Position numbers and translations under genes: made by a program. This document shows, piece after piece, positions 590-48,013 of a stretch of DNA of 52,608 nt. Source of the stretch: a virus (lineage: Duplodnaviria > Caudoviricetes); IMG/VR virus record IMGVR_UViG_3300027896_000058, positions 1 through 52,608 of that record. One strand, 5' to 3'. The notes beneath the pieces are model-generated. The model ran no database searches. It saw only the letters and a program-made list of their open reading frames with translations, and was not told where the DNA came from. Positions within the stretch are counted from its first letter, which is position 1, and each line of letters opens with the position of its first letter.

Positions 590-2914
590 TTATTGTTTCC
601 TGTTCTTGGACTGCATGTCGCGAAGCTTCTGGCTTGTGATGGCATCTTTTAAACCCATCATATGCTGTGTCTTAGCTTCCCTGATCTGCTGTTGATTCTG
701 TTCCTTCATGATCGACACCTTCATGTCTGAATCAATCTTCGCCAGCTTCACCTTGAGATCCGGATCTTCAGTGCCTTGCTGAGCCTGCTGGATGGCTTGC
801 TGTTGATCCTGCTGATCCTTCTGGCGTTGTTGCTGGATCTGCTGGAAGTCCCGAGCGATACGCATGTACACCTTTGCGAACTGGTGAAGCTCTTTGATGT
901 ACTCTTTGTACTCATTGGCCCGGGCCGGATCTTCCTTCATCGCGTCAATATGTTGCGAGAAGTGAGGCATAGCAACCTGCAATACAGGGAAGATCTTCTC
1001 TACTGGTTCGCCCTGTCCCTGCATGTATGCTTCGATCATCGGCTTGATAAGCTCGCTATGCGTAAGGCAATGGATAACGTGCATCTGATCCACGCCGACG
1101 ATAGAGTCCACGCCCATCTTGAAGAAGTTATTCTCCATGGTGGCAATGACATGCTCGTTCGTGGGGATCATGTTCCTGTTGGTGAAGGACAGATACTCCT
1201 CTGCCTTCTTGACTCCAACGCGAACCATGAGCCAGTCAAACATAGCGGCCTTCTTGCCTTTCTCGTCCATGTACGGAGCAAGGCTAAGAGTCTCGTTCGT
1301 TACCATGTGAGCATAGGCAGGAGATCCGTATCCAATGGCGCGTGTTGCTGTCACGTTCCAGTTGTCTACGTTCCTGAGAAGCTCCATCGGAATTCCGTCT
1401 TCCTTGCACCGGCTTATGAACTTCTCTCGCTCTTCGTATCCATCGCTTACCGTTGTCCAGTTCGGGCTAAGGATCCTGCGAACGATCTCTTTGTAGAGCT
1501 GATCAAGATGGATGTAATAGAGGTCGATCTCTGAATGTTCAAGCCGGTATTCCCGCATGAACTTCATCTTTGATTCACCGAGAGTCTGTGACTCCTTGGC
1601 GCCTGGAGCGTCGATCACTTCCGGCCTGTCAGTTCCTACGTTGTGAGACATGCCTCCATCAATGATCTGGGCCACTTCAATAAGGGGCTTTACGTTCGGG
1701 GACATGCCGTTCGGAACAGCAGTGAATCCTTTCTCGATTACGGTGAACGCTCCAACCCTCATCATCTTCATCTTGTTGATCGAGGAAGAGTCCGAGTCGC
1801 CTTGAAAGACCATCGAAGCGCCAAGCATAGCGCCATCAACAGCAGAGTTCTTCATCCTATTCGTCACGACACCGGACGCATAGATCTTCTGTCCAAGCCC
1901 CTTGACTGAATGGAACTCACCATCACCAACGTCAGACATGAAGAAGTTGATGAACCTCTGCATGTTCTGATAACGGTTCAGCTTCTTGTACAGGAACTCG
2001 TTGTCTGCTTCTTCCGAGGTGGCAATGTAATGGGAGATCTTGCCGTCATATTCTTTGACCATCAGGTGATGAACATAGATCGGATCACATACCCCGTAGG
2101 AGTAATAGTAATCGTTGTTCTTAATCATCTGCTGGACTTCTTCGTACTGCGAGGTGGAGTACTGTCCATCCTTCGGCTGGATCGTTCTGTTCGCACGAAG
2201 CAGGGAAAGCTTGATGAGATCAGTATCCCATCCATCCTTCTTCGATGCCGCTTCCTTCTCAGGTGTGGCTATACGTGCATACAGTTCATGCGCCCTGTAC
2301 TTGTGCTTGATGCAAACCATTTCGAGTGTGTCGATGGAAGCGTCAGCATCGTTAGGGACAAGGATAGATCCATGCTTCAGTCCTCTGAACTTCCAGGTTA
2401 TCTCGTCAGGGAAGTAGACAGGTCCGACTCCGAACTTGACCATCTCCGACTGGTGCAACTGCATGTTGAACATGAAGCCGTTCCATCCCCTAAGCATCTC
2501 ATCGAGTCGCGTAGAGAATAAACGGCCATAATCCATGTTCGTGTTCTGAGGATCAGTGACCTCAGATGCGACCTCAGCAAGACAAGGAACGTTGGTGAGC
2601 AGGGTATAATAGGAGGTTTTCCTCGCATCGATATGACCTTCGGCATCGCGGAAGTTGACGTTACTCCGATGACCCTGCCCGAGTCTCTTCAACTCATCGG
2701 GATCATACGGAGGGTTCCCGTCGATCAAGCCCTGAACCATCGCTCGTTTCTTTGCACGAACGTCGTCCATCTCACGCATCTTGTCGATTACGGAACGCGC
2801 TGCAACCATGTCCTTTATACGGGACTTTGGTGCATTGCCGTCAACATCCGTTGTCTGCAGTCCAACGATATTTATATTATGCTCGGCGTTAACCTTGTCT
2901 GCTGTGATCGTCAT
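590..2914 (-). CDS. portal (head-tail connector) protein
   Basis: 774 aa, between TerL and scaffold/MCP; helical body with a Gln-rich coiled-coil C-terminus typical of P22-like podophage portals. Confidence 0.8.
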   Translation of the reverse strand: MTITADKVNAEHNINIVGLQTTDVDGNAPKSRIKDMVAARSVIDKMREMDDVRAKKRAMVQGLIDGNPPYDPDELKRLGQGHRSNVNFRDAEGHIDARKTSYYTLLTNVPCLAEVASEVTDPQNTNMDYGRLFSTRLDEMLRGWNGFMFNMQLHQSEMVKFGVGPVYFPDEITWKFRGLKHGSILVPNDADASIDTLEMVCIKHKYRAHELYARIATPEKEAASKKDGWDTDLIKLSLLRANRTIQPKDGQYSTSQYEEVQQMIKNNDYYYSYGVCDPIYVHHLMVKEYDGKISHYIATSEEADNEFLYKKLNRYQNMQRFINFFMSDVGDGEFHSVKGLGQKIYASGVVTNRMKNSAVDGAMLGASMVFQGDSDSSSINKMKMMRVGAFTVIEKGFTAVPNGMSPNVKPLIEVAQIIDGGMSHNVGTDRPEVIDAPGAKESQTLGESKMKFMREYRLEHSEIDLYYIHLDQLYKEIVRRILSPNWTTVSDGYEEREKFISRCKEDGIPMELLRNVDNWNVTATRAIGYGSPAYAHMVTNETLSLAPYMDEKGKKAAMFDWLMVRVGVKKAEEYLSFTNRNMIPTNEHVIATMENNFFKMGVDSIVGVDQMHVIHCLTHSELIKPMIEAYMQGQGEPVEKIFPVLQVAMPHFSQHIDAMKEDPARANEYKEYIKELHQFAKVYMRIARDFQQIQQQRQKDQQDQQQAIQQAQQGTEDPDLKVKLAKIDSDMKVSIMKEQNQQQIREAKTQHMMGLKDAITSQKLRDMQSKNRKQ

Positions 2915-3370
2915 TTAGAATGCTTCTTTCTTTTTCCCGCCTTGGGCGTCGATGGCATCCATTACCAACTTCTTCCTCAACTCGCGTGTTGCGCCGAAGG
3001 GGAACTTGATCTTGATGTCATGGACTCTCATTAATTCCTTCAACTCTTTCGCCTCACTGATGTCTGCCTGCTGAGCCTTCGTGCCTATCTTCGCCTCTGC
3101 GTTTGGCTCCGACTTCTCTGCCGAGGATCCTTCGATCATGCGCCTGACGATACCGGCTATCTGCATGGGCTTGCGCGCCATGTCTGCCTGGAGATCGTCG
3201 ATTGCTGATTCAAACGTCTTGCCCTTACCTGAAGCAGATGTCGCCCAGATGCGACCATCCCTGTCTGCTGTCTCTGACTGCACGAGTACTATCGTTTCTG
3301 CGTCGCTCTCCATGATTGTGACCATGAGAGGAATCTTGAGGTTCGATACTTTGTTGCCGTTCTTTGCCAT
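2915..3370 (-). CDS. hypothetical protein
   Basis: Stop abuts the portal ATG; likely start MAKNG just after the upstream stop; ends KKEAF. Confidence 0.65.
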   Translation of the reverse strand: MAKNGNKVSNLKIPLMVTIMESDAETIVLVQSETADRDGRIWATSASGKGKTFESAIDDLQADMARKPMQIAGIVRRMIEGSSAEKSEPNAEAKIGTKAQQADISEAKELKELMRVHDIKIKFPFGATRELRKKLVMDAIDAQGGKKKEAF

Positions 3371-3372
3371 TG

Positions 3373-3957
3373 TTATTGCCCTTTCAACCAGCACTTATCG
3401 GGACACTTTGACAAGGCGGCCCCCAACACCTTCGATAGAACTTCTATCTCTGTGAACACCGCGAACTCGTTCATGATCCCTGTGCTTGAACACGCCTGCA
3501 GGTCAGCACTCTGCGGAACAGAACAGCCGGCCATCATCTCCGCCTTGATTGCCCTGACACCACGGCAGGATGAACAGCCAGTAAAAGAAACGTTGTTGGC
3601 GCATGACACGCAGATCTTTGCGCGCCGGATAGCCTCTGTCTTCGATACCTTGGCTCGATCCTTGCCGGCCTTGTAGACTGCAATGGTCCGGTTGACCGTG
3701 TTCGCTGCGAACATATGAGGCCCGCCGGAGAGCCTTGCATTCTCGTCCTCGCAGATCCCGTAAGGCATCTTGGTGCAAAGCCAGTCCTCTACGATGACGG
3801 CCATGTCCTTGACGTCGAGCTTGTTCGCGGATCTGTGAGCAATGACAGCCTTCACAAGATCGCCCATGTTCATCGCATTGAAGTGAAAGCCTGTGTCTTT
3901 GTCTGTGTAGTGGAACGATCCTGGAGGAGCCGTGTTCGTCTTTATTAACTTGAGCAT
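3373..3957 (-). CDS. Cys-rich hypothetical protein (probable metal-binding)
   Basis: 194 aa with CxxC pairs (CVSC, CSSC) and terminal CPDKCW. Confidence 0.7.
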   Translation of the reverse strand: MLKLIKTNTAPPGSFHYTDKDTGFHFNAMNMGDLVKAVIAHRSANKLDVKDMAVIVEDWLCTKMPYGICEDENARLSGGPHMFAANTVNRTIAVYKAGKDRAKVSKTEAIRRAKICVSCANNVSFTGCSSCRGVRAIKAEMMAGCSVPQSADLQACSSTGIMNEFAVFTEIEVLSKVLGAALSKCPDKCWLKGQ

Positions 3958-4478
3958 TTCAATTTCTCCAAAGCCGAAACAACAAGTTTCAATTCTGCAA
4001 GACTGGCATTATTTTTTATAGTATTCGCCTTGTATGATATGACCCAAATGTTGTCCTTGGTGTATCCCTTTTTGTTATCTATTCTGTCTATTGTAGGAGA
4101 TCCATCATGTGGCTTTCCTGTGCCAACAGATATAGGTATTCCCAGAACAGGGCAAAAAAGAGGAATGATTATGTCGGAAAGCTCTATGTCTATATCAAGC
4201 CAATTAGCCTTTGCTCTTACTTTTGCATGATGAAGCATCTTAAATTCTGGATGTTCAGCATGCCTTTTTTTCTTGTATGCAACTATATCAGGCCTTCTAT
4301 GAAAATCTTTTGGTCTATGAGCCTTTGAGTAATCATACCCACATGATCTGCACCATCTGTTTAGTTTATCTTTCTTACTATTATCGACAGAGAAAAAAGA
4401 AACATGAAGAGTGGCTTTGCATCTCTTGCAGATTTTATATCCAGGCGGTGCGGTATTTGGTTTGATTAGCTTCAACAT
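3945..4478 (-). CDS. free-standing HNH homing endonuclease
   Basis: CKRC...WCRSC zinc finger, CPVLG and PTIDRIDNKKGYTKDNIWVISYKANTIK HNH-like core; visibly more AT-rich than its flanks. Confidence 0.85.
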   Translation of the reverse strand: MLKLIKPNTAPPGYKICKRCKATLHVSFFSVDNSKKDKLNRWCRSCGYDYSKAHRPKDFHRRPDIVAYKKKRHAEHPEFKMLHHAKVRAKANWLDIDIELSDIIIPLFCPVLGIPISVGTGKPHDGSPTIDRIDNKKGYTKDNIWVISYKANTIKNNASLAELKLVVSALEKLKCSS

Positions 4479-4494
4479 GGCCTATATGTTCCCA

Positions 4495-6207
4495 TTAAAA
4501 TATTGAGTCGGTCAAGTAGCTTTTGTCCGACGAGTCAACGTCATACATCTGCAACTCTTCATCAGATGTACCGGATTCCCTCATGTCTCGGGTCGTGAAC
4601 CTTGAACCCGGGATAGTTCCAAACCTCCTTCTTGCAACCTCAAGAACCATCGTTGCCGCGTCAGCCTTGTTCGGACTGGCGCCCGTCCTCATCCTCATCT
4701 CATGCTTCGTTTCAACGCAGATCTTCTGCTTTGAATTGTCCATCATCCTCGACACGAACTCGACAATGGTATCATCATCTATCCCGAAGATCTGGCCATG
4801 GATAGCAAACTTCCTCATCGAATACCAAAGCTCAGTGATCTTGTTCTGATAGATGTCACATCCCCTGCGCTCATCATTGTCCTCAACCTTGAAGTCTGAA
4901 GCCGCGCCGCCGCACTGGATTCGAAGGATCTGCGAGTTCCATTCGTGCTCAAGGATAGAGGCAAAGGCTGTCTGCGTGCCTGAGCAATCGAGGCCCAGGT
5001 TCTGAGGCGTGACATGGTACTTGCCGCAAAGGTCAATGATCTGCCTTGCGAGATCGTACTCAAGGGTAGTGCCAGCCGATACCTTGAGCCGGATGTTTAT
5101 CGCAGGGGAGAAGTAGATCCCAACGAGTCCAGACCGGAGGATCCCGACCTTCGCGTGCTGCATGATTGCCGCATCTCCACCGGTTGTGAAGGCCGGATCG
5201 ACTGCCGCTATGTCTACCTGCGCTCCTGACCAGACTGGTTTCTCCTGCATCTTGTGTTGGACTGCGAAGCTTTCGGAGAAGATTGATTGGGATACACCGT
5301 CAGGGCAAACGAATCCTATACGCTGACTCCAGAATCTCGGGCTATCTTCTCCTGGATCTTTTCGCATCGCATCAATTTGCGAAGTGTTAAGCATGAAGAA
5401 GAAACGTTCGGGGTCATCGACTCCAGGACTTTTTCTACCGTCAAAGAACAGGGTCTTGCCCTTTTCAGTTTCCCATTCTTCATCCTCTGTGGAAATAGAA
5501 TCCCATCCATGCTTGGGTTTACTCGCACGCCCAAGCGGGTCCATTCGAGAGACTGGGTTTCCCATGCCAAGGAATTTTGCTTCCTTACCTGTTGACAAGT
5601 TATCAAACGCTTCGACCGCGGCTTGCCGTGTGGCTTGCATCTCGTCAATGATAAGACAGTTGTAAGTGTTATGCACACCGACGATGTTTCCGACTGCTTC
5701 TTCAACGGTTCCTTTCTGAACAGCAATACCGAAGATTCCGTTACGACTGTTCTCATCGCCAAGGATGATGGCAAACTTGGTTGCGTAATGGATCCCGGGA
5801 AAGCCAGGAACCATACGATGATACTTCAAGATGTCATTCCAGATGCGGCGTTCCAGCATCTTTCCCGTAGTTGAGCAGATCGTGATAGAAGTCTCTGATG
5901 GCGCACTGAGCCAATGTACCAGAGCAATGACAGCCGCATCTGCGGACTTGCCCACGCTCGACGGCCCCCACCATGTCTGGAAATCGTAGGCACACCAAGC
6001 CTTTACCCGCCTCACCGTCCACTTGCTTATGATGTGACCCTTGCCCCCGTTCGGCATCTTCTCCGGCCAGAGTGCCTCGATCACGTTCATCATGTGCTTC
6101 CATTTGGGAGTCTCCTTGTCGGTGAGGTTATAGTTGCGGTAGCACCAAAGGCTTATCGTATGCGGGTGAGTGTCGTCAGGGAAGTTGGTTCCATGGGCCT
6201 TGATCAT
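4495..6207 (-). CDS. terL: terminase large subunit
   Basis: Walker A GPSSVGKS, Walker B CLIIDE, coupling motif GMGNP, RNase H-like AAVDPA and C-terminal SPNKADA. Confidence 0.9.
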   Translation of the reverse strand: MIKAHGTNFPDDTHPHTISLWCYRNYNLTDKETPKWKHMMNVIEALWPEKMPNGGKGHIISKWTVRRVKAWCAYDFQTWWGPSSVGKSADAAVIALVHWLSAPSETSITICSTTGKMLERRIWNDILKYHRMVPGFPGIHYATKFAIILGDENSRNGIFGIAVQKGTVEEAVGNIVGVHNTYNCLIIDEMQATRQAAVEAFDNLSTGKEAKFLGMGNPVSRMDPLGRASKPKHGWDSISTEDEEWETEKGKTLFFDGRKSPGVDDPERFFFMLNTSQIDAMRKDPGEDSPRFWSQRIGFVCPDGVSQSIFSESFAVQHKMQEKPVWSGAQVDIAAVDPAFTTGGDAAIMQHAKVGILRSGLVGIYFSPAINIRLKVSAGTTLEYDLARQIIDLCGKYHVTPQNLGLDCSGTQTAFASILEHEWNSQILRIQCGGAASDFKVEDNDERRGCDIYQNKITELWYSMRKFAIHGQIFGIDDDTIVEFVSRMMDNSKQKICVETKHEMRMRTGASPNKADAATMVLEVARRRFGTIPGSRFTTRDMRESGTSDEELQMYDVDSSDKSYLTDSIF

Positions 6208-6473
6208 AATCCGAACTTCCTCTCAAGACAACTCTCCATGAAGCTCTGAGCCCCTGCAACGGCCAGAATGAGCAAAGGGATATCAAGGCCTGCCTTGAGC
6301 ATAATAATCGTTCCTAGAGCCATCCAGACCCCTGTACAGTGCGGACAAGAGAGGAGCGCTGTGTACCTCAGAGAGAGCGCGCGCACCCTACTCATTGCTG
6401 AGAAAGGCCCCTCGTCGGTACACAGCAAGATAGTCAGCCTGTAGCAAGCAAGCGAACATATCAAAACATCCAT
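6204..6473 (-). CDS. DUF1360-like small membrane protein
   Basis: LACYRLTILL..D.GPF...LLSCPHCTGVW pattern; GGGGGAG RBS before the ATG at 6473. Confidence 0.7.
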   Translation of the reverse strand: MDVLICSLACYRLTILLCTDEGPFSAMSRVRALSLRYTALLSCPHCTGVWMALGTIIMLKAGLDIPLLILAVAGAQSFMESCLERKFGL

Positions 6474-14014: not shown

Positions 14015-14524
14015 GTGAAGAGATTAATTGAAACACAAAGAACAAGGATAAGAGATCAACTTTCATGGATACGAGTCTCAGATCCAGATTGCGTCCTCGC
14101 AAAGAGGCGCGTCTGGATCAACGAGGAAGCATCCACGAAGACGGTTTCGATACACGATGAAAACGACACGCTTTTCATTCGCTACAATCGCAACTTTGTT
14201 CAGAAGCTTTCTGGAAAAGACATATATCATGTACTTATTCATGAAGCCGAACACATCAAGCGATGCCATTCAGATAGATGCGGACATATTGTTGAACTGC
14301 TATCGAAAGAAGAGATCGTTCGGATGTTCAACATCGGAGCGGATCTTGAAATCAACCAAGAAATAAAGTGTCTTGGTAATGCAGTTCAAGTCGGAAAGGG
14401 AACATACGACAAGTATCAGGCAGGATTAACAGCAGAACAGTATTTCGTCTGCGTCTTGCATGATAGAATCGAACACGAGAAAGTAAAGGAGTCGTTGAAA
14501 TGCGCAAGAAAACCAAGCAAATAA
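14015..14524 (+). CDS. DUF2201-N-like zincin metallopeptidase domain protein
   Basis: YNRNFV...LIHEAEHI...FNIGADLEINQ...GLTAEQY. Confidence 0.7.
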   Translation: MKRLIETQRTRIRDQLSWIRVSDPDCVLAKRRVWINEEASTKTVSIHDENDTLFIRYNRNFVQKLSGKDIYHVLIHEAEHIKRCHSDRCGHIVELLSKEEIVRMFNIGADLEINQEIKCLGNAVQVGKGTYDKYQAGLTAEQYFVCVLHDRIEHEKVKESLKCARKPSK

Positions 14525-44193: not shown

Positions 44194-46046
44194 CTCCCCT
44201 CCAACTTGAGCAATCGCGCTTTCAGTGCCTTACGCGCAATAATCTCATCACGCAATGCCGCTTGCAGGTAGCCGCACCAGCCGACGAGGTCAATGCCAGC
44301 GTTAGGGTCGCCATTGGCGCAAATCTCACGGGGTATCTGCGGGTCATCCAGCATGATGCCAACATGAGTCGCTTGGAACTTAGGCAATGCCGCTTTAGCC
44401 GTTGAGAGTTCATCGCGTTTGGCTTCGACCATCGCAGGTTCAAAACTATCAACGATCAACGCCTTTTCTGCCACGGGTTCCGATACACCCTTTTCATCCA
44501 TTGTTGCGAGTTCCATTAAGGCTTCATCGGTCGTGATGATAGCATCGGCCTTATCCATTCTCTGCAACACTTCCTCGTCACGCACAATCGGTTTACGTTT
44601 CCAGCGGTACACGGGAATCAGTGACAATTCGTCGGCGTAGTTCTTGACCACATCGACTTCAACAATATCCTTCGCGTCACGGTTGCAGGTGTAGGTTGTC
44701 CATGAGTCGGCAATGGGATCGGTCGCGGATGTTTGGACGATGGAGAGGATGTTTGTGCCGGTGGTGGTCCCGATTCCCACGTTGCGCCCAGAAGATATAC
44801 GCATTGCCTCTGCATTGTCGTTATTGTTTGTACCAGCAAAAAATGCCATGTACATAGGAACACTATTGCTGGCAACAGTGCCCTCTGAATACACTTTAAT
44901 TGATGCACTATTAATATACGAATAGCCATCATATCCATGAAATTCTACATTTCCTGCACGATCACCGGAGCTAACAGATACAGGAGCATCGGGATTTCCT
45001 CTAGCTTTTTTCAGGGTAATCACCGGAGGAGATGCGTCCGCAGAGAACTGACTGAATATCGCTGTTCTATCTGCAATGCCAGCAGTAGATATTACTCTTA
45101 ATGGTGTGTTTGTTCCTCCATAAATAACCATCACTGCGTTGGTCACATTGTTCGTTCCTATCCCAACTCGTCCAAGAAACGTATTCACAGCCCCCGCCAC
45201 CGTCTGCGTGATGGACGCGCACGAGATGTTAGTGGCCAAAATGTCACCGGCAACGTGGAGCTTGGCGGCGGGAGAGGTTGTGCCGATGCCGACCAATCCC
45301 CCGAAGTAACTCTTCGTCGTCCCGTCAATATACACCCCGTAATTATTTGACGCGCCAATAAGATTCGCCACGCGCAGGCCGTATTGATTTAGGCATGTTC
45401 CACCTCCCATATAGATATCTCTTGCGGCAAAATGCTCCACGTCTGTTATGGCTATCTTGGACCCTGCAACAGTTTCGGCTCCACTATCGAATCCCCTAAT
45501 ATGGGCCACTGTGCCCGAAGATGATGATCCGAACAAGGGATATGCAAATGCGCCCCGTATATACGGAGTACCTGTAAACTGACTGCGTATATCCATGGCT
45601 GTCGTAAAACCTTGAAAAGCGAATCCCCCGGTGCAATCAAAAGCCATACTACTTAAAATCGGTTGTATCTGAAAATTATTATATACACCCGCTCCGGTAG
45701 GCGCGGCAGGAGACACCGTTGTCCCTAATTGCATATCGTAACTGGCATTTACTACCGCTGTTTTGGTGCTAGCAATGTTCACAATATTACTGAACACGGA
45801 CACGCCCTTGAATACATTAGTCGAGGCGGCAGAGCTATTCGTAATCCCGCCGCTGACTTGGAGGGTTGTTGCGGTAATGTTGGATGCAATCACTTGGGCA
45901 ACAACACCAGATACGGAATTGATACTAGACCACTTCAGAGATGACGTACCTAAATTACCTTCGTTACTTGCTCTTGGGACAACATCTCTCGTTGCACCTG
46001 AACACAGCGAAACCAACAACATAAAATACACGATTAGCTTTTTCAT
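44190..46046 (-). CDS. tail fibre/spike with C-terminal S74-type intramolecular chaperone and N-terminal signal peptide
   Basis: MKKLIVYFMLLVSLCSG-ATR; VGIGTT repeats; WTTY..NR.AK...HVG...C-terminal coiled coil. Confidence 0.8.
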   Translation of the reverse strand: MKKLIVYFMLLVSLCSGATRDVVPRASNEGNLGTSSLKWSSINSVSGVVAQVIASNITATTLQVSGGITNSSAASTNVFKGVSVFSNIVNIASTKTAVVNASYDMQLGTTVSPAAPTGAGVYNNFQIQPILSSMAFDCTGGFAFQGFTTAMDIRSQFTGTPYIRGAFAYPLFGSSSSGTVAHIRGFDSGAETVAGSKIAITDVEHFAARDIYMGGGTCLNQYGLRVANLIGASNNYGVYIDGTTKSYFGGLVGIGTTSPAAKLHVAGDILATNISCASITQTVAGAVNTFLGRVGIGTNNVTNAVMVIYGGTNTPLRVISTAGIADRTAIFSQFSADASPPVITLKKARGNPDAPVSVSSGDRAGNVEFHGYDGYSYINSASIKVYSEGTVASNSVPMYMAFFAGTNNNDNAEAMRISSGRNVGIGTTTGTNILSIVQTSATDPIADSWTTYTCNRDAKDIVEVDVVKNYADELSLIPVYRWKRKPIVRDEEVLQRMDKADAIITTDEALMELATMDEKGVSEPVAEKALIVDSFEPAMVEAKRDELSTAKAALPKFQATHVGIMLDDPQIPREICANGDPNAGIDLVGWCGYLQAALRDEIIARKALKARLLKLEGR

Positions 46047-48013
46047 AACGGTTGCAATCCTCCAGTTGTGTTTGTCTCCCATAAAGCATCAGACTGAAAA
46101 ACACTTACAGGTTCCAGTCCTCCAGTTAAGTTAATATCCCAAGCTCCATTGGTCGTAACTTGAATGCTGATATAGCCGACAGCATTGGTTCTGGTGAATG
46201 CAGAAGTTCCCCCAGATACAACAAGATTGGTAATAATATTGTTCGTGCTCACTGGCTGAAGCGCGGTTGCAACCCCACCACTCACGCTGACCATCCAGTT
46301 TGAAATATTATTTATTGAGCTGGCAAACAATGCCTGAGTTGATGCAGACATCGTAAGTCCATTAGACCAAATAAGAGAGGACACATTTGTAACACTGAAT
46401 CCTCCAAGGCTCAAATCAGACAGCATTGGCAACGTGCCATCAACACGTAAATATCCAAGGTCAGCGGTGGACAACGTAATGTCCATCTGCGAGGGATAGT
46501 TTGTACCCACTCCTACAATGATATTGGTTGTAGCTCCACCGCCGGAAGATGATGCAAGTTTTGACCGTACCGCAAAATACCAAGGTACATTGGTGGAAAT
46601 ATTAGGCAATGGAATTACCCAAGATGAGATGACAGGAACCGCGCCTTTATCCACAAGATTGCTTGCCGCCGCATCGCCCCACTCAATGAATAAATGTGTG
46701 GAAGGCTCGTACCTGTAAACTTCTATCTTTGCGTACTTGGTGTTGTTTCCGCCCGTATTGTCGCAGACATAGTAATTAACTTTAGCACTGCCGCCACCAT
46801 ACACGGTAAACAACTGATTCGTCCAAATTGAACAAGCAAAGTAGCCGCCTATGGGTGCGCCATTTGTTCTAATAGCCTGCACTGGAGGGATGCCGTCACT
46901 GATCACATACGTTGCGTTGGTGGGCGTAATATCATTAGTGTACGAAAGAGTTTTATTGGAGGTAAAATACAGAGTCTTATTCGCGTTGATTACGGAGCGC
47001 AACTGAGCCAGTGTCACGGGCTGGTTGCTGATTGTGGCATCCGGAATGGTCATGGTGTAGAGACCGCCGTTGTTGGTGAAATAAGATGATGGAGCAAGTC
47101 CGCCAAGTTTTCCGGAATCTTTCACTGTTCCATTCGTTGCGTTGTCTACATAGGTAACTGATGCAAGTCCATTCGTGACTGTCTGATTTGTGAATGAGTT
47201 TGGATTGTTGGTTGGATAGAAATAGGTAAGTGTCCAACCCTTCAAAGTGTTCGTTGCTGAGTCCACGTACCCGATGGAAGCAAGACCGTTCGTGATCGCG
47301 GCTGTCACATAGTTCTTGAGAGTTACCCAATTCGTAACAGAAGACCAGAGTGTGTTCGTGGATGAATCAACATATGCCAGGGAAGCGAGTCCATTCGTTA
47401 TCGCAGACGTGACATAGTTCTTTCCGAGGATCCAGTTCGTTACCGTAGACCAGAGAGTATTCGTTGCGCCATCGACGTATAGGAGGCTTGCAAGGCCATT
47501 GGTGACGCTTGAATTAACCAACCCTTGTGTTGATATGGGGTAAAGGAGATTGTTCGTTATACCGTATCCTAAGAGGCTTGTAGGTGTGTTGGTGATGTTG
47601 TTCCAGTTGCGGAAGAAGTTCGTATCCACAACGAAAGCAGGAAAGCCTGTGTTCACGCTCATCACGAATGCGCCGTTGCTGTAGACAAAGCCCCAGAAGT
47701 TCGTGAGCTTGAGAACCGTGTTCGTGGATCCGATCTTGTTCGTGTTCGCTACAAGCCAAGCCCAGGCATTCGATCCAGAGTAATCATTCGTGGGAATCGA
47801 GATCCCCCAATTGTGCGGAGTAATCTTCTGAACGTATCCAGTAGACGAAGGAGCCAAGAGCGTGAGCTGGTAGATCGAGCCGGTAGACGAGGAACTATTC
47901 GAAGAGATGTTGCTGAGAACGTAGGGCTTGTAGTACGGCCAATCATTTCCCTGTGCTTTCGTTTCAGAAAACAATGCCAAGAAAATGATGAGCCGTACCA
48001 TCCATCGGAACAT
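46043..48013 (-). CDS. TN-rich fibre-like protein with signal peptide
   Basis: MFRWMVRLIIFLALFSETKA-QG; ~35-aa internal repeats; YLRVDGT..M and QPVTLAQL fibre-like motifs. Confidence 0.75.
   Translation of the reverse strand: MFRWMVRLIIFLALFSETKAQGNDWPYYKPYVLSNISSNSSSSTGSIYQLTLLAPSSTGYVQKITPHNWGISIPTNDYSGSNAWAWLVANTNKIGSTNTVLKLTNFWGFVYSNGAFVMSVNTGFPAFVVDTNFFRNWNNITNTPTSLLGYGITNNLLYPISTQGLVNSSVTNGLASLLYVDGATNTLWSTVTNWILGKNYVTSAITNGLASLAYVDSSTNTLWSSVTNWVTLKNYVTAAITNGLASIGYVDSATNTLKGWTLTYFYPTNNPNSFTNQTVTNGLASVTYVDNATNGTVKDSGKLGGLAPSSYFTNNGGLYTMTIPDATISNQPVTLAQLRSVINANKTLYFTSNKTLSYTNDITPTNATYVISDGIPPVQAIRTNGAPIGGYFACSIWTNQLFTVYGGGSAKVNYYVCDNTGGNNTKYAKIEVYRYEPSTHLFIEWGDAAASNLVDKGAVPVISSWVIPLPNISTNVPWYFAVRSKLASSSGGGATTNIIVGVGTNYPSQMDITLSTADLGYLRVDGTLPMLSDLSLGGFSVTNVSSLIWSNGLTMSASTQALFASSINNISNWMVSVSGGVATALQPVSTNNIITNLVVSGGTSAFTRTNAVGYISIQVTTNGAWDINLTGGLEPVSVFQSDALWETNTTGGLQPL
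47130..47520 (-). repeat. ~35-aa (105-bp) tandem coding repeat, about 3.5 copies
   Basis: (V/I)TNGLAS..YVD.(A/S)TNTLWS.VTNW...KNYVT repeated. Confidence 0.85.

What the first reader, a model, noticed from the sequence alone, without database searches (positions are those of the whole stretch)
3915..4478. HNH gene duplicates its neighbour's N-terminus with almost every codon recoded
Seen: the HNH begins MLKLIKPNTAPPG and the downstream gene begins MLKLIKTNTAPPG (12/13 identical). The DNA differs at 10 of 13 codons: ATG TTG AAG CTA ATC AAA CCA AAT ACC GCA CCG CCT GGA versus ATG CTC AAG TTA ATA AAG ACG AAC ACG GCT CCT CCA GGA. The HNH is AT-rich. Inference: an intron-less homing element inserted after codon 13, took over the host gene's start and RBS, and supplies a synonymous, cleavage-resistant replacement 5' end that repairs the gene.
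Basis: partly seen in the sequence, partly recalled or inferred. Interest (0 to 1): 0.72.

Follow-up and report, generated by a model that had tools for sequence, protein, structure and literature searches.

The report
Homing nuclease borrows neighbour gene's start
A selfish DNA-cutting-enzyme gene sits just inside the start of a conserved phage gene, uses that gene's original start and first 13 codons for itself, and is followed by a differently spelled copy of those codons that keeps the gene whole; this layout is long known from fungal mitochondria but is not one I found described for phages.

Summary
On the minus strand an AT-rich 177-aa nuclease gene (3945-4478) and the next gene, X (3373-3957), begin with 13 residues that are 12/13 identical. 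At DNA level 27/39 bases match and 10/13 codons differ.

The leader belongs to X. It is the conserved N-terminal signature of a large X family. X normally follows the putative terminase directly, in one copy: 47 of 47 relatives' loci have one copy and 0 of 66 have the nuclease.

The nuclease is PacI-like (His-Me finger). Its relatives usually start 3-10 residues before the zinc ribbon. This one has no start codon of its own, so it depends on the captured X start. A GGAG ribosome-binding site for X lies inside its 3' end.

A second phage very probably has the same layout on a different X allele (P0003/P0150). Two other phages carry the same nuclease family flanked by duplicated gene ends.

The "recoding" equals synonymous saturation (P=0.14). 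Ordinary divergence between a donor and a recipient lineage explains it, so designed recoding is not needed. Cleavage resistance and homing remain untested, and no nuclease-free close relative was found.

It is a new variant of a known kind, and this scan has noted the same layout before on other phage DNA.

The parts
4495..6207 (-). Putative large terminase gene (570 aa), the upstream neighbour
   Evidence: No Pfam, PHROG or PDB sequence hit. The ESM Atlas places it with 'terminase family protein' clusters (feature score 0.99, structure TM 0.83-0.87). It is syntenic with X and a putative portal gene in 47 relatives' loci.
4479..4494 (-). 16-base spacer between the terminase stop and the first copy's ATG, with no good Shine-Dalgarno
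   Evidence: In 31 of 47 relatives X's ATG overlaps the terminase stop (ATGA) instead.
4440..4478 (-). Copy 1: X-type codons 1-13 (MLKLIKPNTAPPG), now the start and leader of the nuclease
   Evidence: The leader is absent from 118 of 120 nuclease relatives. It is coil with the lowest confidence in the model. It matches the X family's N-terminal signature.
3945..4478 (-). PacI-like His-Me finger ('HNH') endonuclease ORF, 177 aa, probably a free-standing homing endonuclease gene
   Evidence: phrog_3322 at 1.9e-32 and phrog_1035 at 5.1e-26. The best PDB match is PacI by profile (E 4.6e-4) and by fold (Foldseek E 4e-3; VIA Z 7.0, rmsd 4.1, 92 aligned). The model has pLDDT 91.7. GC3 is 0.32.
3958..4439 (-). 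AT-rich core of the insert (nuclease codons 14 to about 174)
   Evidence: Composition profiles. Both 39-base copies are 46% GC (counted), so the compositional break lies between them.
3966..3969 (-). GGAG ribosome-binding site for X, 8 bases before its ATG and inside the nuclease coding sequence
   Evidence: Many other genes of this phage have GGAG or AGGAG at similar spacing.
3919..3957 (-). Copy 2: the working first 13 codons of X (MLKLIKTNTAPPG). Its first 13 bases overlap the nuclease's last codons and stop.
   Evidence: Its codon usage fits the phage better than the nuclease (log-likelihood -15.1 against -18.4).
3373..3957 (-). Gene X, 194 aa: a conserved Cys-rich protein of unknown function encoded between the putative terminase and portal genes
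   Evidence: 729 homologues at E<=1e-3. It is syntenic in 47 relatives' loci. M1, P11, P12 and the four Cys at 116/119/128/131 are invariant or nearly so. No family or fold match was found.

Best explanation
A free-standing homing-endonuclease cassette sits inside the 5' end of gene X, at the boundary of codons 13 and 14.

The cassette is an AT-rich gene for a PacI-like His-Me finger nuclease that has no start codon of its own. It is read from X's original position, using an X-type ATG and 13 X-type codons as an unstructured leader. Its 3' end contains a GGAG and overlaps a second, differently spelled copy of X codons 1-13, which restarts X. X is therefore still made whole although the insert lies within its coding sequence. 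No intron or intein is involved.

The two copies differ because they come from two diverged phage lineages. One was copied from the donor together with the nuclease gene during double-strand-break repair. The other is what the recipient already had. Their divergence is ordinary synonymous saturation under strong protein-level constraint. As side effects, the repeats cannot recombine to delete the insert, and the restored junction need not be a substrate for the enzyme.

Shown:
- the anatomy;
- the foreign composition;
- that the leader is X-derived;
- that the nuclease depends on the captured start;
- single-copy empty sites in distant relatives;
- a very probable second instance on another X allele;
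- the same nuclease family flanked by duplicated gene ends in two other phages.

Inferred:
- nuclease activity;
- that its target is the conserved X 5' region;
- the homing mechanism;
- that copy 2 rather than copy 1 came with the cassette.
For: 1. Anatomy and composition.

2. The leader is not part of the nuclease.
- Of the 120 family proteins listed, only this one and its nearest relative P0003 begin with it.
- 34 of the 66 proteins that have an early CxxC have it at residues 3-10.
- In the 20-sequence alignment the family consensus starts M-x-K-x-C, and Tyr14 here sits where the family Met is.
- Model residues 1-13 are coil. The first ten residues have mean pLDDT 64 against 85-97 for residues 11-160.

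3. The leader is X's.
- The nearest X-family representatives begin with the same kind of N-terminus as the window's X (ML, then K or R..., TPPGG).
- M1, P11 and P12 are invariant in 15 sequences.
- 64 of 150 homologues have PP exactly at residues 11-12, with M1 in 63 of those 64.

4. Empty sites.
- 0 of 66 related loci have a nuclease homologue.
- Of the 47 loci with both terminase and X, 31 have an ATGA overlap and 5 more lie within 6 bases.
- 47 of 47 have no second copy; the best other match is 5-6 of 13.

5. No start of its own. No in-frame ATG/GTG/TTG lies between codon 2 and Met81, which is beyond the zinc ribbon C17...C46 (read).

6. Second instance.
- P0003 (52% identical, the reciprocal best hit) begins MLKVIKRDITP, then SIPAG.
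- X homologue P0150 begins MLKVIKRDITP, then PGG, which is 11/11 identical.
- Both are singletons from one source, each on one contig of 1625 bases.
- Each leader matches its own X (12/13 and 11/11) but the other phage's X at only 6/11.

7. Family habit. 106 loci with this nuclease family were examined.
- L044 has the gene after codon 8 of a C5 DNA methyltransferase, with the 8 codons duplicated (8/8 aa, 16/24 nt).
- L041 has a duplicated C-terminus of the upstream gene (54/81 nt).

8. Divergence pattern. There is 1 amino-acid change against about 11 synonymous ones, and codon differences are at saturation.

9. Precedent. Fungal mitochondrial mobile endonuclease ORFs carry replacement gene ends that are 64-81% identical in DNA and 91-100% in protein (PMC3630166, passages read).
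Against: - No nuclease-free close relative was found. The nearest putative terminase is 36% identical. The exact empty allele, and which copy is the older resident, therefore cannot be shown.
- Both copies share Ala10, which none of the 14 nearest X representatives has (13 Thr, 1 Val). In the second instance both copies also follow the local allele. This fits donors that were close relatives. It equally fits long residence with selection on both copies.
- Composition does not separate the copies: both are 46% GC.
- The family lacks the canonical catalytic His (Arg132 here). Activity rests on the PacI analogy, in which a Tyr substitutes (PMC5714182 and PMC3384342, passages). The fold match to PacI is modest (Z 7.0, Foldseek E 4e-3).
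- That P0003 and P0150 share a contig is inferred from equal contig length and source only.
- The relatives used as 'empty sites' overlap between the two collections, so they are not 66 independent genomes.
Confidence: 0.68

Rival explanations
1. Old, fixed arrangement with a functional leader. The duplication is ancient, and the nuclease has been kept by the phage, for example for packaging or for competition. Its X-type N-terminal peptide is under selection because it does the same job as in X, such as docking to the same partner in the packaging module. Both copies would then co-evolve with that partner while their DNA drifts to saturation.
For: The fused layout is shared by two nucleases only 52% identical. 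Each leader follows its own local X allele (12/13 and 11/11, against 6/11 across phages). The ratio of amino-acid to synonymous change between the copies is very low. Both copies share the lineage-specific Ala10. The gene lies between the putative terminase and portal genes, and in Skunavirus a nuclease in that position is read as packaging-related (PMC12724721, passages).
Against: GC3 of 0.32 against 0.61-0.68 is not what long residence predicts. The nuclease is absent from 66 of 66 related loci. The P0003 leader breaks the X-invariant P12 (S at that position) and diverges after residue 11. The leader is predicted to be unstructured. In the Skunavirus survey the conserved packaging nuclease is GVE2-like, whereas PacI-like ones are rare and variable.
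Confidence: 0.1
2. Mirror version of the main model. Copy 2, together with the rest of X, is the recipient's original. The cassette is copy 1 plus the nuclease gene, with copy 1 being a piece of a previous host's X. It landed between the terminase stop and X's ATG.
For: Copy 2's codon usage fits the phage better than the nuclease, while copy 1's is neutral. In L044 the upstream stub has the AT-rich spelling of the nuclease side, and the downstream copy has the GC-richer spelling of the methyltransferase gene. The spacer before copy 1 differs from the ATGA overlap seen in 31 of 47 relatives.
Against: The nuclease's last codons and stop overlap copy 2, and X's GGAG lies inside the nuclease ORF. 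The nuclease's conserved C-terminus ends at the same Cys in P0003, so the 3' end of the insert and copy 2's start look co-adapted. In break repair, everything between the two homology arms, copy 2 included, is copied from the donor (inference).
Confidence: 0.2
3. The gene is a terminase-associated packaging HNH like HK97 gp74 or the GVE2 enzyme, and the shared 13 residues are an incidental local duplication.
For: The position, next to the putative terminase gene. Many phages encode such a nuclease beside their terminase genes (abstract of PMC3592412 in the listing; PMC12724721 passages).
Against: It is absent from 66 of 66 related loci. It is of the PacI type without the catalytic His, not the GVE2/gp74 type. 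Its composition is foreign. The same family occurs beside unrelated genes elsewhere, with the same kind of flanking duplication.
Confidence: 0.05
4. Assembly artefact or chimera: the insert or the duplication is not real DNA.
For: The record is a metagenome assembly. The only sequencing run that holds it is probably its own source.
Against: One 19,241-base contig of that run covers 2900-6300 with no differences and an even depth of 30.6. The proteins are on record from two contigs. Both ORFs are intact and in register. The same layout very probably exists in an independent assembly.
Confidence: 0.02

Closest known systems
Mobile endonuclease ORFs (mORFs) with a replacement gene end in fungal mitochondria: Allomyces macrogynus atp6; Glomus sp. 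atp6, atp9, cox2, nad3 (PMC3630166, passages read; the 1994 Allomyces paper is known to me only as its reference 48)
   Same: An endonuclease ORF lies within a coding gene and is flanked by two copies of that gene's end. The copies are nearly identical in protein (91-100% there, 12/13 here) but far apart in DNA (64-81% there, 69% here). The gene stays functional without splicing. The divergence is read as import from another lineage.
   Different: There the C-terminus is replaced and the native end is stranded downstream, sometimes unexpressed. Here the N-terminus is involved, and the displaced piece is put to use as the nuclease's only start codon and leader, while a new ribosome-binding site inside the nuclease gene restarts the host gene. 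The enzyme families differ (LAGLIDADG or GIY-YIG there, PacI-like His-Me finger here), as does the host (organelle against phage).
Intronless homing by free-standing endonuclease genes of T4-like phages (Seg and Mob enzymes; review PMC2988022, passages; definition in PMC12724721)
   Same: A free-standing nuclease gene with a variable presence lies beside conserved genes, and flanking markers are co-converted from the donor.
   Different: Those genes lie between genes and have their own starts. The T4 review contains no word beginning 'duplicat'. Homing was not tested here.
Genes split by an endonuclease gene: Aeh1 nrdA split by mobE (passage and reference in PMC2988022) and 'fractured genes' with split inteins (PMC2677866, abstract only)
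   Same: An endonuclease gene sits inside a coding region without an intron.
   Different: There the host protein is made in two pieces that reassemble or are trans-spliced. Here the duplicated 13 codons let the host protein be made in one piece.
PacI restriction endonuclease / His-Me finger group 20 (PDB 3ldy; PMC5714182 and PMC3384342, passages)
   Same: An N-terminal CxxC...CxxC zinc ribbon, then a beta-beta-alpha-metal core with D-R-x-D...G-Y...N...N-x-I-K and no catalytic His. PacI is the best PDB match by sequence profile and by fold.
   Different: About 15% identity. PacI is a 142-aa bacterial restriction enzyme. This is a 177-aa phage gene with an extra helical linker. Its specificity and activity are unknown.
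Earlier notes of this scan on other phage DNA (e1-6109424, e1-6023946, e1-5658171, e1-5480152)
   Same: Nuclease genes flanked by synonymously diverged duplicates of a host gene's end. In e1-6109424 the insert also lies just after the first dozen codons of the host gene.
   Different: They are other genomes and other host genes, and I did not check them. New here are the in-frame capture of the host start by a nuclease with no start of its own, and a very probable second instance on a different allele of the same host gene.

Membership tests
His-Me finger (HNH) nuclease, PacI-like group | [quoted passage not shown] | tested here: met
   AlphaFold model with pLDDT 91.7. PacI 3ldy is the top hit by Foldseek (E 4e-3, prob 1.00) and by VIA-align (Z 7.0, rmsd 4.1, 92 aligned). 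It is followed by Gme HNH (Z 5.0), Hpy99I (Z 4.7) and McrA (Z 4.7). The scores are modest.
His-Me finger (HNH) nuclease, PacI-like group | Sequence motif D-R-x-D...G-Y...N...N with no catalytic His, plus an N-terminal CxxC...CxxC | tested here: met
   C17, C20, C43, D131, G138, Y139, N143 and N152 are invariant, and C46, R132 and D134 nearly invariant, in 20 sequences. The profile aligns both parts to PacI (E 4.6e-4).
His-Me finger (HNH) nuclease, PacI-like group | Metal-dependent DNA cleavage | not testable with these tools
   Inferred from conserved residues and the PacI analogy.
Free-standing homing endonuclease gene (intronless homing) | Sporadic presence among related genomes | tested here: met
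   0 of 66 related loci hold a homologue. The relatives are distant, and the two collections overlap.
Free-standing homing endonuclease gene (intronless homing) | Same insertion site in independent genomes or alleles | tested here: inconclusive
   P0003 and P0150 give an 11/11 leader match on a different X allele. Both are on a single 1625-base contig of the same source.
Free-standing homing endonuclease gene (intronless homing) | Cleaves the nuclease-free allele and is inherited preferentially in mixed infection | not testable with these tools
   No experiment was possible. No nuclease-free variant was seen in the one run that holds the phage (contigs only).
Free-standing homing endonuclease gene (intronless homing) | Not inside a self-splicing intron or an intein | tested here: met
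   Rfam scan of 3000-5000 at E<=1 gave only a chance-level ROSE_2 hit on the other strand (20.7 bits against a gathering score of 65). There is no Hint or intein domain in Pfam. The nuclease ORF ends with its own stop, out of frame with X.
mORF-type replacement of a gene end (fungal mitochondria) | Endonuclease ORF flanked by two copies of the host gene's end, alike in protein and diverged in DNA | tested here: met
   12/13 residues and 27/39 bases identical.
mORF-type replacement of a gene end (fungal mitochondria) | One copy matches the allele of an element-free close relative (native) and the other does not (imported) | not testable with these tools
   No close relative was found in viral contigs, metagenome contigs, genome contigs, the phage records or the protein collections.
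mORF-type replacement of a gene end (fungal mitochondria) | It is the C-terminal end that is replaced, in an organelle genome | tested here: not met
   Here it is the N-terminal 13 codons of a phage gene. It works like an mORF but is not a member of that set. L041 shows the C-terminal form with this same nuclease family.
Terminase-associated packaging HNH (HK97 gp74 / GVE2-like) | Conserved next to the terminase genes in related phages | tested here: not met
   0 of 66 related loci.
Terminase-associated packaging HNH (HK97 gp74 / GVE2-like) | Canonical His-Asn-His catalytic residues | tested here: not met
   Arg132 stands where the general-base His would be, in at least 90% of the aligned family. 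The family groups with PacI.

The most novel reading that the evidence does not exclude
The 13-residue leader is not a scar but a working part. A lineage of PacI-like nucleases has specialised on the 5' end of gene X and always expresses itself through X's own start. It keeps X's N-terminal peptide because that peptide takes it to the same partner in the packaging module as X. The nuclease would then be delivered, or timed, together with DNA packaging. Both copies would co-evolve with that partner while their DNA is free, or even selected, to differ.
Probability: 0.08. Interest if true: 0.75.

Novelty: new variant of a known kind. Interest (0 to 1): 0.57.

Why it matters
Selfish nuclease genes are usually said to enter essential genes harmlessly only by hiding in a self-splicing intron or an intein, or else to stay between genes. 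This locus shows a third way in a phage. The insert sits inside the coding sequence, ends the interrupted reading frame by using it as its own translation start, and restarts the host gene with a ribosome-binding site and a spare copy of the lost codons.

The design explains short, synonymously diverged duplications at gene ends that annotation pipelines ignore or misread. It marks recombination boundaries between phage lineages. It also gives a simple sequence signature for finding active homing sites, and their targets, in uncultured phages.

The same nuclease family shows the N-terminal form twice more (one instance only very probable) and the C-terminal form once. This scan has noted four similar loci in other viruses. 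The layout may therefore be common in viruses, not confined to fungal mitochondria.

Tried and rejected
**Searches for close relatives or an empty allele**
- X, P0122 and P0150 as single queries in viral contigs found no relatives.
- X in the phage records found nothing.
- The word-indexed protein search with X found only itself.
- The putative terminase in viral contigs, metagenome contigs and genome contigs gave nothing above 36% identity. In the phage records it gave one 21.8% match.
- The X alignment A2 was not accepted as a locus query because no stretch is conserved enough.
- One sequencing run holds the stretch and is probably its source. Its contigs show no joint that skips the insert. 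Contigs drop rare variants, so this says nothing about nuclease-free variants.

**What X is**
- No Pfam or PHROG family.
- No fold match: Foldseek PDB best E 0.93, BFVD best E 0.72, VIA wide best Z 3.4.
- Its function stays unknown.

**Labels of the neighbours**
- The putative terminase and portal proteins have no significant Pfam, PHROG or PDB sequence match.
- The terminase label rests on the Atlas look-up. The portal label rests on size and synteny only.

**Regulation around the two starts**
- Promoter-like and terminator-like sites do not exceed the shuffled controls.
- No RNA structure is better than shuffles around either start (z +1.06 and +0.85).

**Intron**
- None was found by Rfam.

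**Over-dispersed recoding**
- Rejected as unproven (P=0.14).
- Composition or codon usage as a way to tell the native copy gives only a weak hint.

**Other loci and genes**
- The 31 nuclease loci that had an ORF showed no N-terminal match to the downstream gene by eye. The systematic scan then found L041 and L044.
- A second AT-rich ORF of the window with a PHROG 'HNH endonuclease' hit (14015-14524) has no flanking duplication.

**Literature**
- Searches, plus passages read, turned up no phage example of an endonuclease gene carrying a replacement gene end.
- The library lacks most subscription journals, and supplements were closed, so this is not proof of absence.
Full report
**What is there**

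The window is a complete 52,608-base virus record. On the minus strand, in order, lie:
- a 570-aa putative large terminase gene (4495-6207);
- a 177-aa ORF (3945-4478);
- a 194-aa ORF that I call X (3373-3957);
- a 159-aa ORF (2915-3394);
- a 774-aa putative portal gene (590-2914).

The 177-aa ORF begins MLKLIKPNTAPPG and X begins MLKLIKTNTAPPG. 27 of 39 bases are identical and 10 of 13 codons differ. From the sequence, no identical run exceeds about 5 bases. The similarity starts exactly at the ATG and ends at codon 13, plus one base; the sequences before the two ATGs are unrelated. The 177-aa ORF's stop lies inside X, with a 13-base overlap. A GGAG sits 8 bases before X's ATG, inside the 177-aa ORF. 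The first ATG has no comparable Shine-Dalgarno, although most genes of this phage do.

The 177-aa ORF has GC 0.37 and GC3 0.32, against 0.50-0.54 and 0.61-0.68 for its neighbours. It is the most AT-rich 500-base bin of the record. In a six-frame scan of the whole window, only this pair and an internal repeat of a gene at 46043-48013 reach 12/13.

**What the 177-aa protein is**

Pfam finds nothing. PHROGs gives 'endonuclease' phrog_3322 (1.9e-32) and phrog_1035 (5.1e-26), with the matches starting at residues 41 and 11.

A profile of 20 family members finds the restriction enzyme PacI as the best solved relative (E 4.6e-4). It aligns both the N-terminal CxxC...CxxC and the D-R-x-D...G-Y...N...N-x-I-K core. 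The AlphaFold model is confident (pLDDT 91.7). Its best structural match is again PacI (Foldseek E 4e-3; VIA Z 7.0, rmsd 4.1, 92 aligned), followed by other beta-beta-alpha-metal nucleases. These scores are modest.

The family has Arg where the catalytic His normally is. For PacI, two papers state that a Tyr of the loop takes over that role (PMC5714182 and PMC3384342, passages). Gly138-Tyr139 are invariant here and align with PacI's G-Y. That this is the same Tyr is my inference. Activity is therefore plausible but unproven.

**The leader belongs to X, not to the nuclease**

On the nuclease side:
- Of the 120 family proteins listed, only the window's protein and its nearest relative P0003 start with this kind of leader.
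- 34 of the 66 proteins with an early CxxC have it at residues 3-10.
- In the alignment the family begins M-x-K-x-C, and Tyr14 of the window's protein sits where that Met is.
- In the model, residues 1-13 are coil. The first ten residues have the lowest confidence of the chain (64).
- No in-frame ATG, GTG or TTG lies between codon 2 and Met81, beyond the zinc ribbon (read). A complete enzyme can therefore be made only from the captured start.

On the X side:
- X belongs to a large family, with 729 proteins at E<=1e-3 and the nearest at 48% identity.
- The family's N-terminus is one of its best conserved parts. M1, P11 and P12 are invariant in 15 sequences.
- 64 of 150 homologues have PP at residues 11-12, with G13 and G14 each in 52 of those 64.

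**Empty sites**

No close relative of this phage exists in the collections I could search. The nearest putative terminases are 31-36% identical.

I examined 66 such loci: 35 from the viral collection and 31 from the metagenome collection. The two sets partly hold the same contigs.
- None has a homologue of the nuclease.
- 47 have both the terminase and X.
- In 31 of those 47, X's ATG overlaps the terminase stop.
- 5 more lie within 6 bases.
- 3 have a 71-74-base spacer.
- 8 have an unrelated gene inserted there (730 bases in 6 loci, 1044 bases in 2).

None of the 47 has a second copy of its own X start; the best other match is 5-6 of 13, against 12 of 13 in the window. The one sequencing run that holds the phage is probably its source. 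As contigs, it shows only the insert-bearing form, which says nothing about rare variants.

**A second instance**

P0003 is the reciprocal best relative of the window's nuclease (52% identity over the full length). It begins MLKVIKRDITP followed by SIPAG and then K-K-F-C. This again leaves three residues before the first Cys and no Met of its own.

Among the 150 X homologues, P0150 (192 aa, 36% identical to the window's X) begins MLKVIKRDITP followed by PGG. That is 11 of 11 identical to the P0003 leader.

Both proteins are singletons from the same kind of source, each on exactly one contig of 1625 bases. The two genes would fill about 1100 of those bases. I take them to lie on one contig, but I could not read its DNA.

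Each leader matches its own phage's X (12/13 and 11/11) and the other phage's X at only 6 of 11. The P0003 leader departs from X's invariant P12 after residue 11, as expected for a piece no longer serving as X's N-terminus.

**The same nuclease family does this elsewhere**

I scanned 106 loci that hold a family member with an ORF. These came from 109 entries, including the window as a control, and some contigs were fetched twice. Eleven top scores were artefacts of short ORFs overlapping themselves, and 92 loci scored 4-6 of 12.

Besides the window, two loci stood out:
- In L044 the nuclease gene sits after codon 8 of a C5 DNA methyltransferase. An 8-codon stub plus 3 codons and a stop lies upstream. 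The nuclease keeps its own Met. A second copy of the 8 codons starts the methyltransferase (8/8 residues, 16/24 bases).
- In L041 the last 22 or so codons of the upstream gene are repeated after the nuclease gene. Over the 27 codons compared, 54 of 81 bases are identical.

The capture of the host start in the window is therefore one variant of a recurring scar of this family.

**What the 'recoding' means**

Nine of the 12 codons that encode the same residue differ. If both copies drew codons independently from the phage's own usage, 6.9 would differ, and 9 or more occur in 14% of draws. The copies are saturated, not more.

There is only one amino-acid difference, against about eleven synonymous base changes. 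A copy freed from constraint would have collected mostly amino-acid changes in that time. The divergence therefore arose while both copies were working X starts, that is, in two separate genomes, and the two were brought together recently. This agrees with the unameliorated AT-richness of the insert.

It is also the reading given for fungal mitochondrial mobile endonuclease ORFs. There the duplicated C-termini are 64-81% identical in DNA and 91-100% in protein, and the native copy matches an element-free sister species (PMC3630166, passages).

Two consequences follow from the sequence itself. The repeats are too dissimilar to recombine and delete the insert. The junction of copy 2 with the rest of X differs from an uninterrupted X at a third of its bases. 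Whether this makes it resistant to the enzyme is untested.

**Mechanism proposed (inferred)**

1. The enzyme recognises the conserved DNA that encodes X's N-terminal signature in phages lacking the insert, and it cuts near codon 13.
2. Repair from a co-infecting carrier copies the nuclease gene and the carrier's copy 2 between two homology arms. One arm is the terminase end plus X codons 1-13. The other is X from codon 14 onwards.
3. The recipient keeps, or receives, an X-type start that now drives the nuclease weakly. X is translated from the GGAG and ATG embedded in the nuclease's 3' end.

The conserved end of the nuclease supports copy 2 travelling with the nuclease. The window's protein ends ...LEKLKC plus two residues, and P0003 ends ...LEKLQC. 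In the window the Cys codon contains X's ATG.

What does not fit simply is that both copies share Ala10, found in none of the 14 nearest representatives, and that both copies follow the local allele in the second instance too. Donors must then have been fairly close relatives. Otherwise the arrangement is old and both copies are under selection, which is the rival reading. Codon usage favours a phage origin for copy 2 and is neutral for copy 1. It does not decide which copy is native.

**Rivals**

- A packaging HNH of the gp74/GVE2 kind is unlikely. The gene is absent from all relatives, foreign in composition and of the PacI type. In a survey of Skunavirus phages the conserved nuclease between terminase and portal is GVE2-like, while PacI-like ones are rare and variable (PMC12724721, passages).
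- There is no intron and no intein domain.
- An assembly artefact is unlikely (and the second instance).
- A functional leader cannot be excluded. I give it about 0.1.

**Comparison and novelty**

The layout works like the mitochondrial mORF gene hybrids, but at the other end of the gene, in a phage, with another nuclease family. The displaced piece is also reused as the nuclease's start.

It differs from T4-type intronless homing, where the genes lie between genes with their own starts. The T4 review has no word beginning 'duplicat'. It also differs from genes split by endonuclease genes, whose products must reassemble.

My literature searches and the passages read found no phage description. 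The library is incomplete and supplements were closed.

This scan has noted the same kind of layout before on other phage and giant-virus DNA. I did not check those notes. I had reached the mitochondrial comparison before seeing them.

I rate this a new variant of a known kind, with moderate interest.

Noticed in passing
L044:2848-3412: In an unrelated viral contig, a nuclease of the same family sits after codon 8 of a C5 DNA methyltransferase gene. An 8-codon stub lies upstream and a second, differently spelled copy starts the methyltransferase (8/8 residues, 16/24 bases). The methyltransferase gene is GC-richer (0.47-0.50) than its surroundings (0.35-0.40).
   Followed up: partly
L041:2748-3526: The same nuclease family with a C-terminal duplication. 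The last 22 or so codons of the upstream gene are repeated after the nuclease gene (54/81 bases over the 27 codons compared). This is the classical mitochondrial-type layout.
   Followed up: partly
L010:6690-7676 and L017:6560-7297 (also L011, L019-L021, L092, L093): The terminase-X junction is a hot spot in marine relatives. One group has a 328-aa protein with a prepilin-type N-terminus inserted there, and another has a 245-aa protein. In both cases X's start is not duplicated.
   Followed up: partly
window 2915-3394 (-): A 159-aa ORF lies between X and the putative portal gene and overlaps X's end by 22 bases. In the relatives the portal gene follows X directly. It has no family match.
   Followed up: no
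window 46043-48013 (-): A 656-aa protein with several diverged tandem repeats of about 35 residues (for example KNYVT.AITNGLA, 12/13 between neighbouring units). It may be a fibre-like protein. It has no PHROG match.
   Followed up: no
window 14015-14524 (+): A second AT-rich ORF (GC 0.42, 169 aa) with a PHROG 'HNH endonuclease' hit (phrog_1314, 3.6e-12). It contains an HEAEH motif and has no flanking duplication.
   Followed up: partly
proteins P0004, P0005, P0006, P0008, P0272, P0273: Some relatives carry two nuclease modules in tandem in one 256-292-aa protein. PacI works as a homodimer, so these may be single-chain pseudo-dimers.
   Followed up: no
window 4495-6207 (-): The Atlas structure search for the putative terminase lists a cluster of 944-aa relatives that carry LAGLIDADG/Hom_end intein domains. 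The packaging gene next door is thus also a target of selfish nucleases in related phages.
   Followed up: no
L176: The only match to the putative terminase in the bacterial and archaeal genome collection is a 9.5-kb contig binned with a marine Planctomycetes MAG (36% identity). This is a weak hint about the hosts of the marine relatives, not of this freshwater phage.
   Followed up: no
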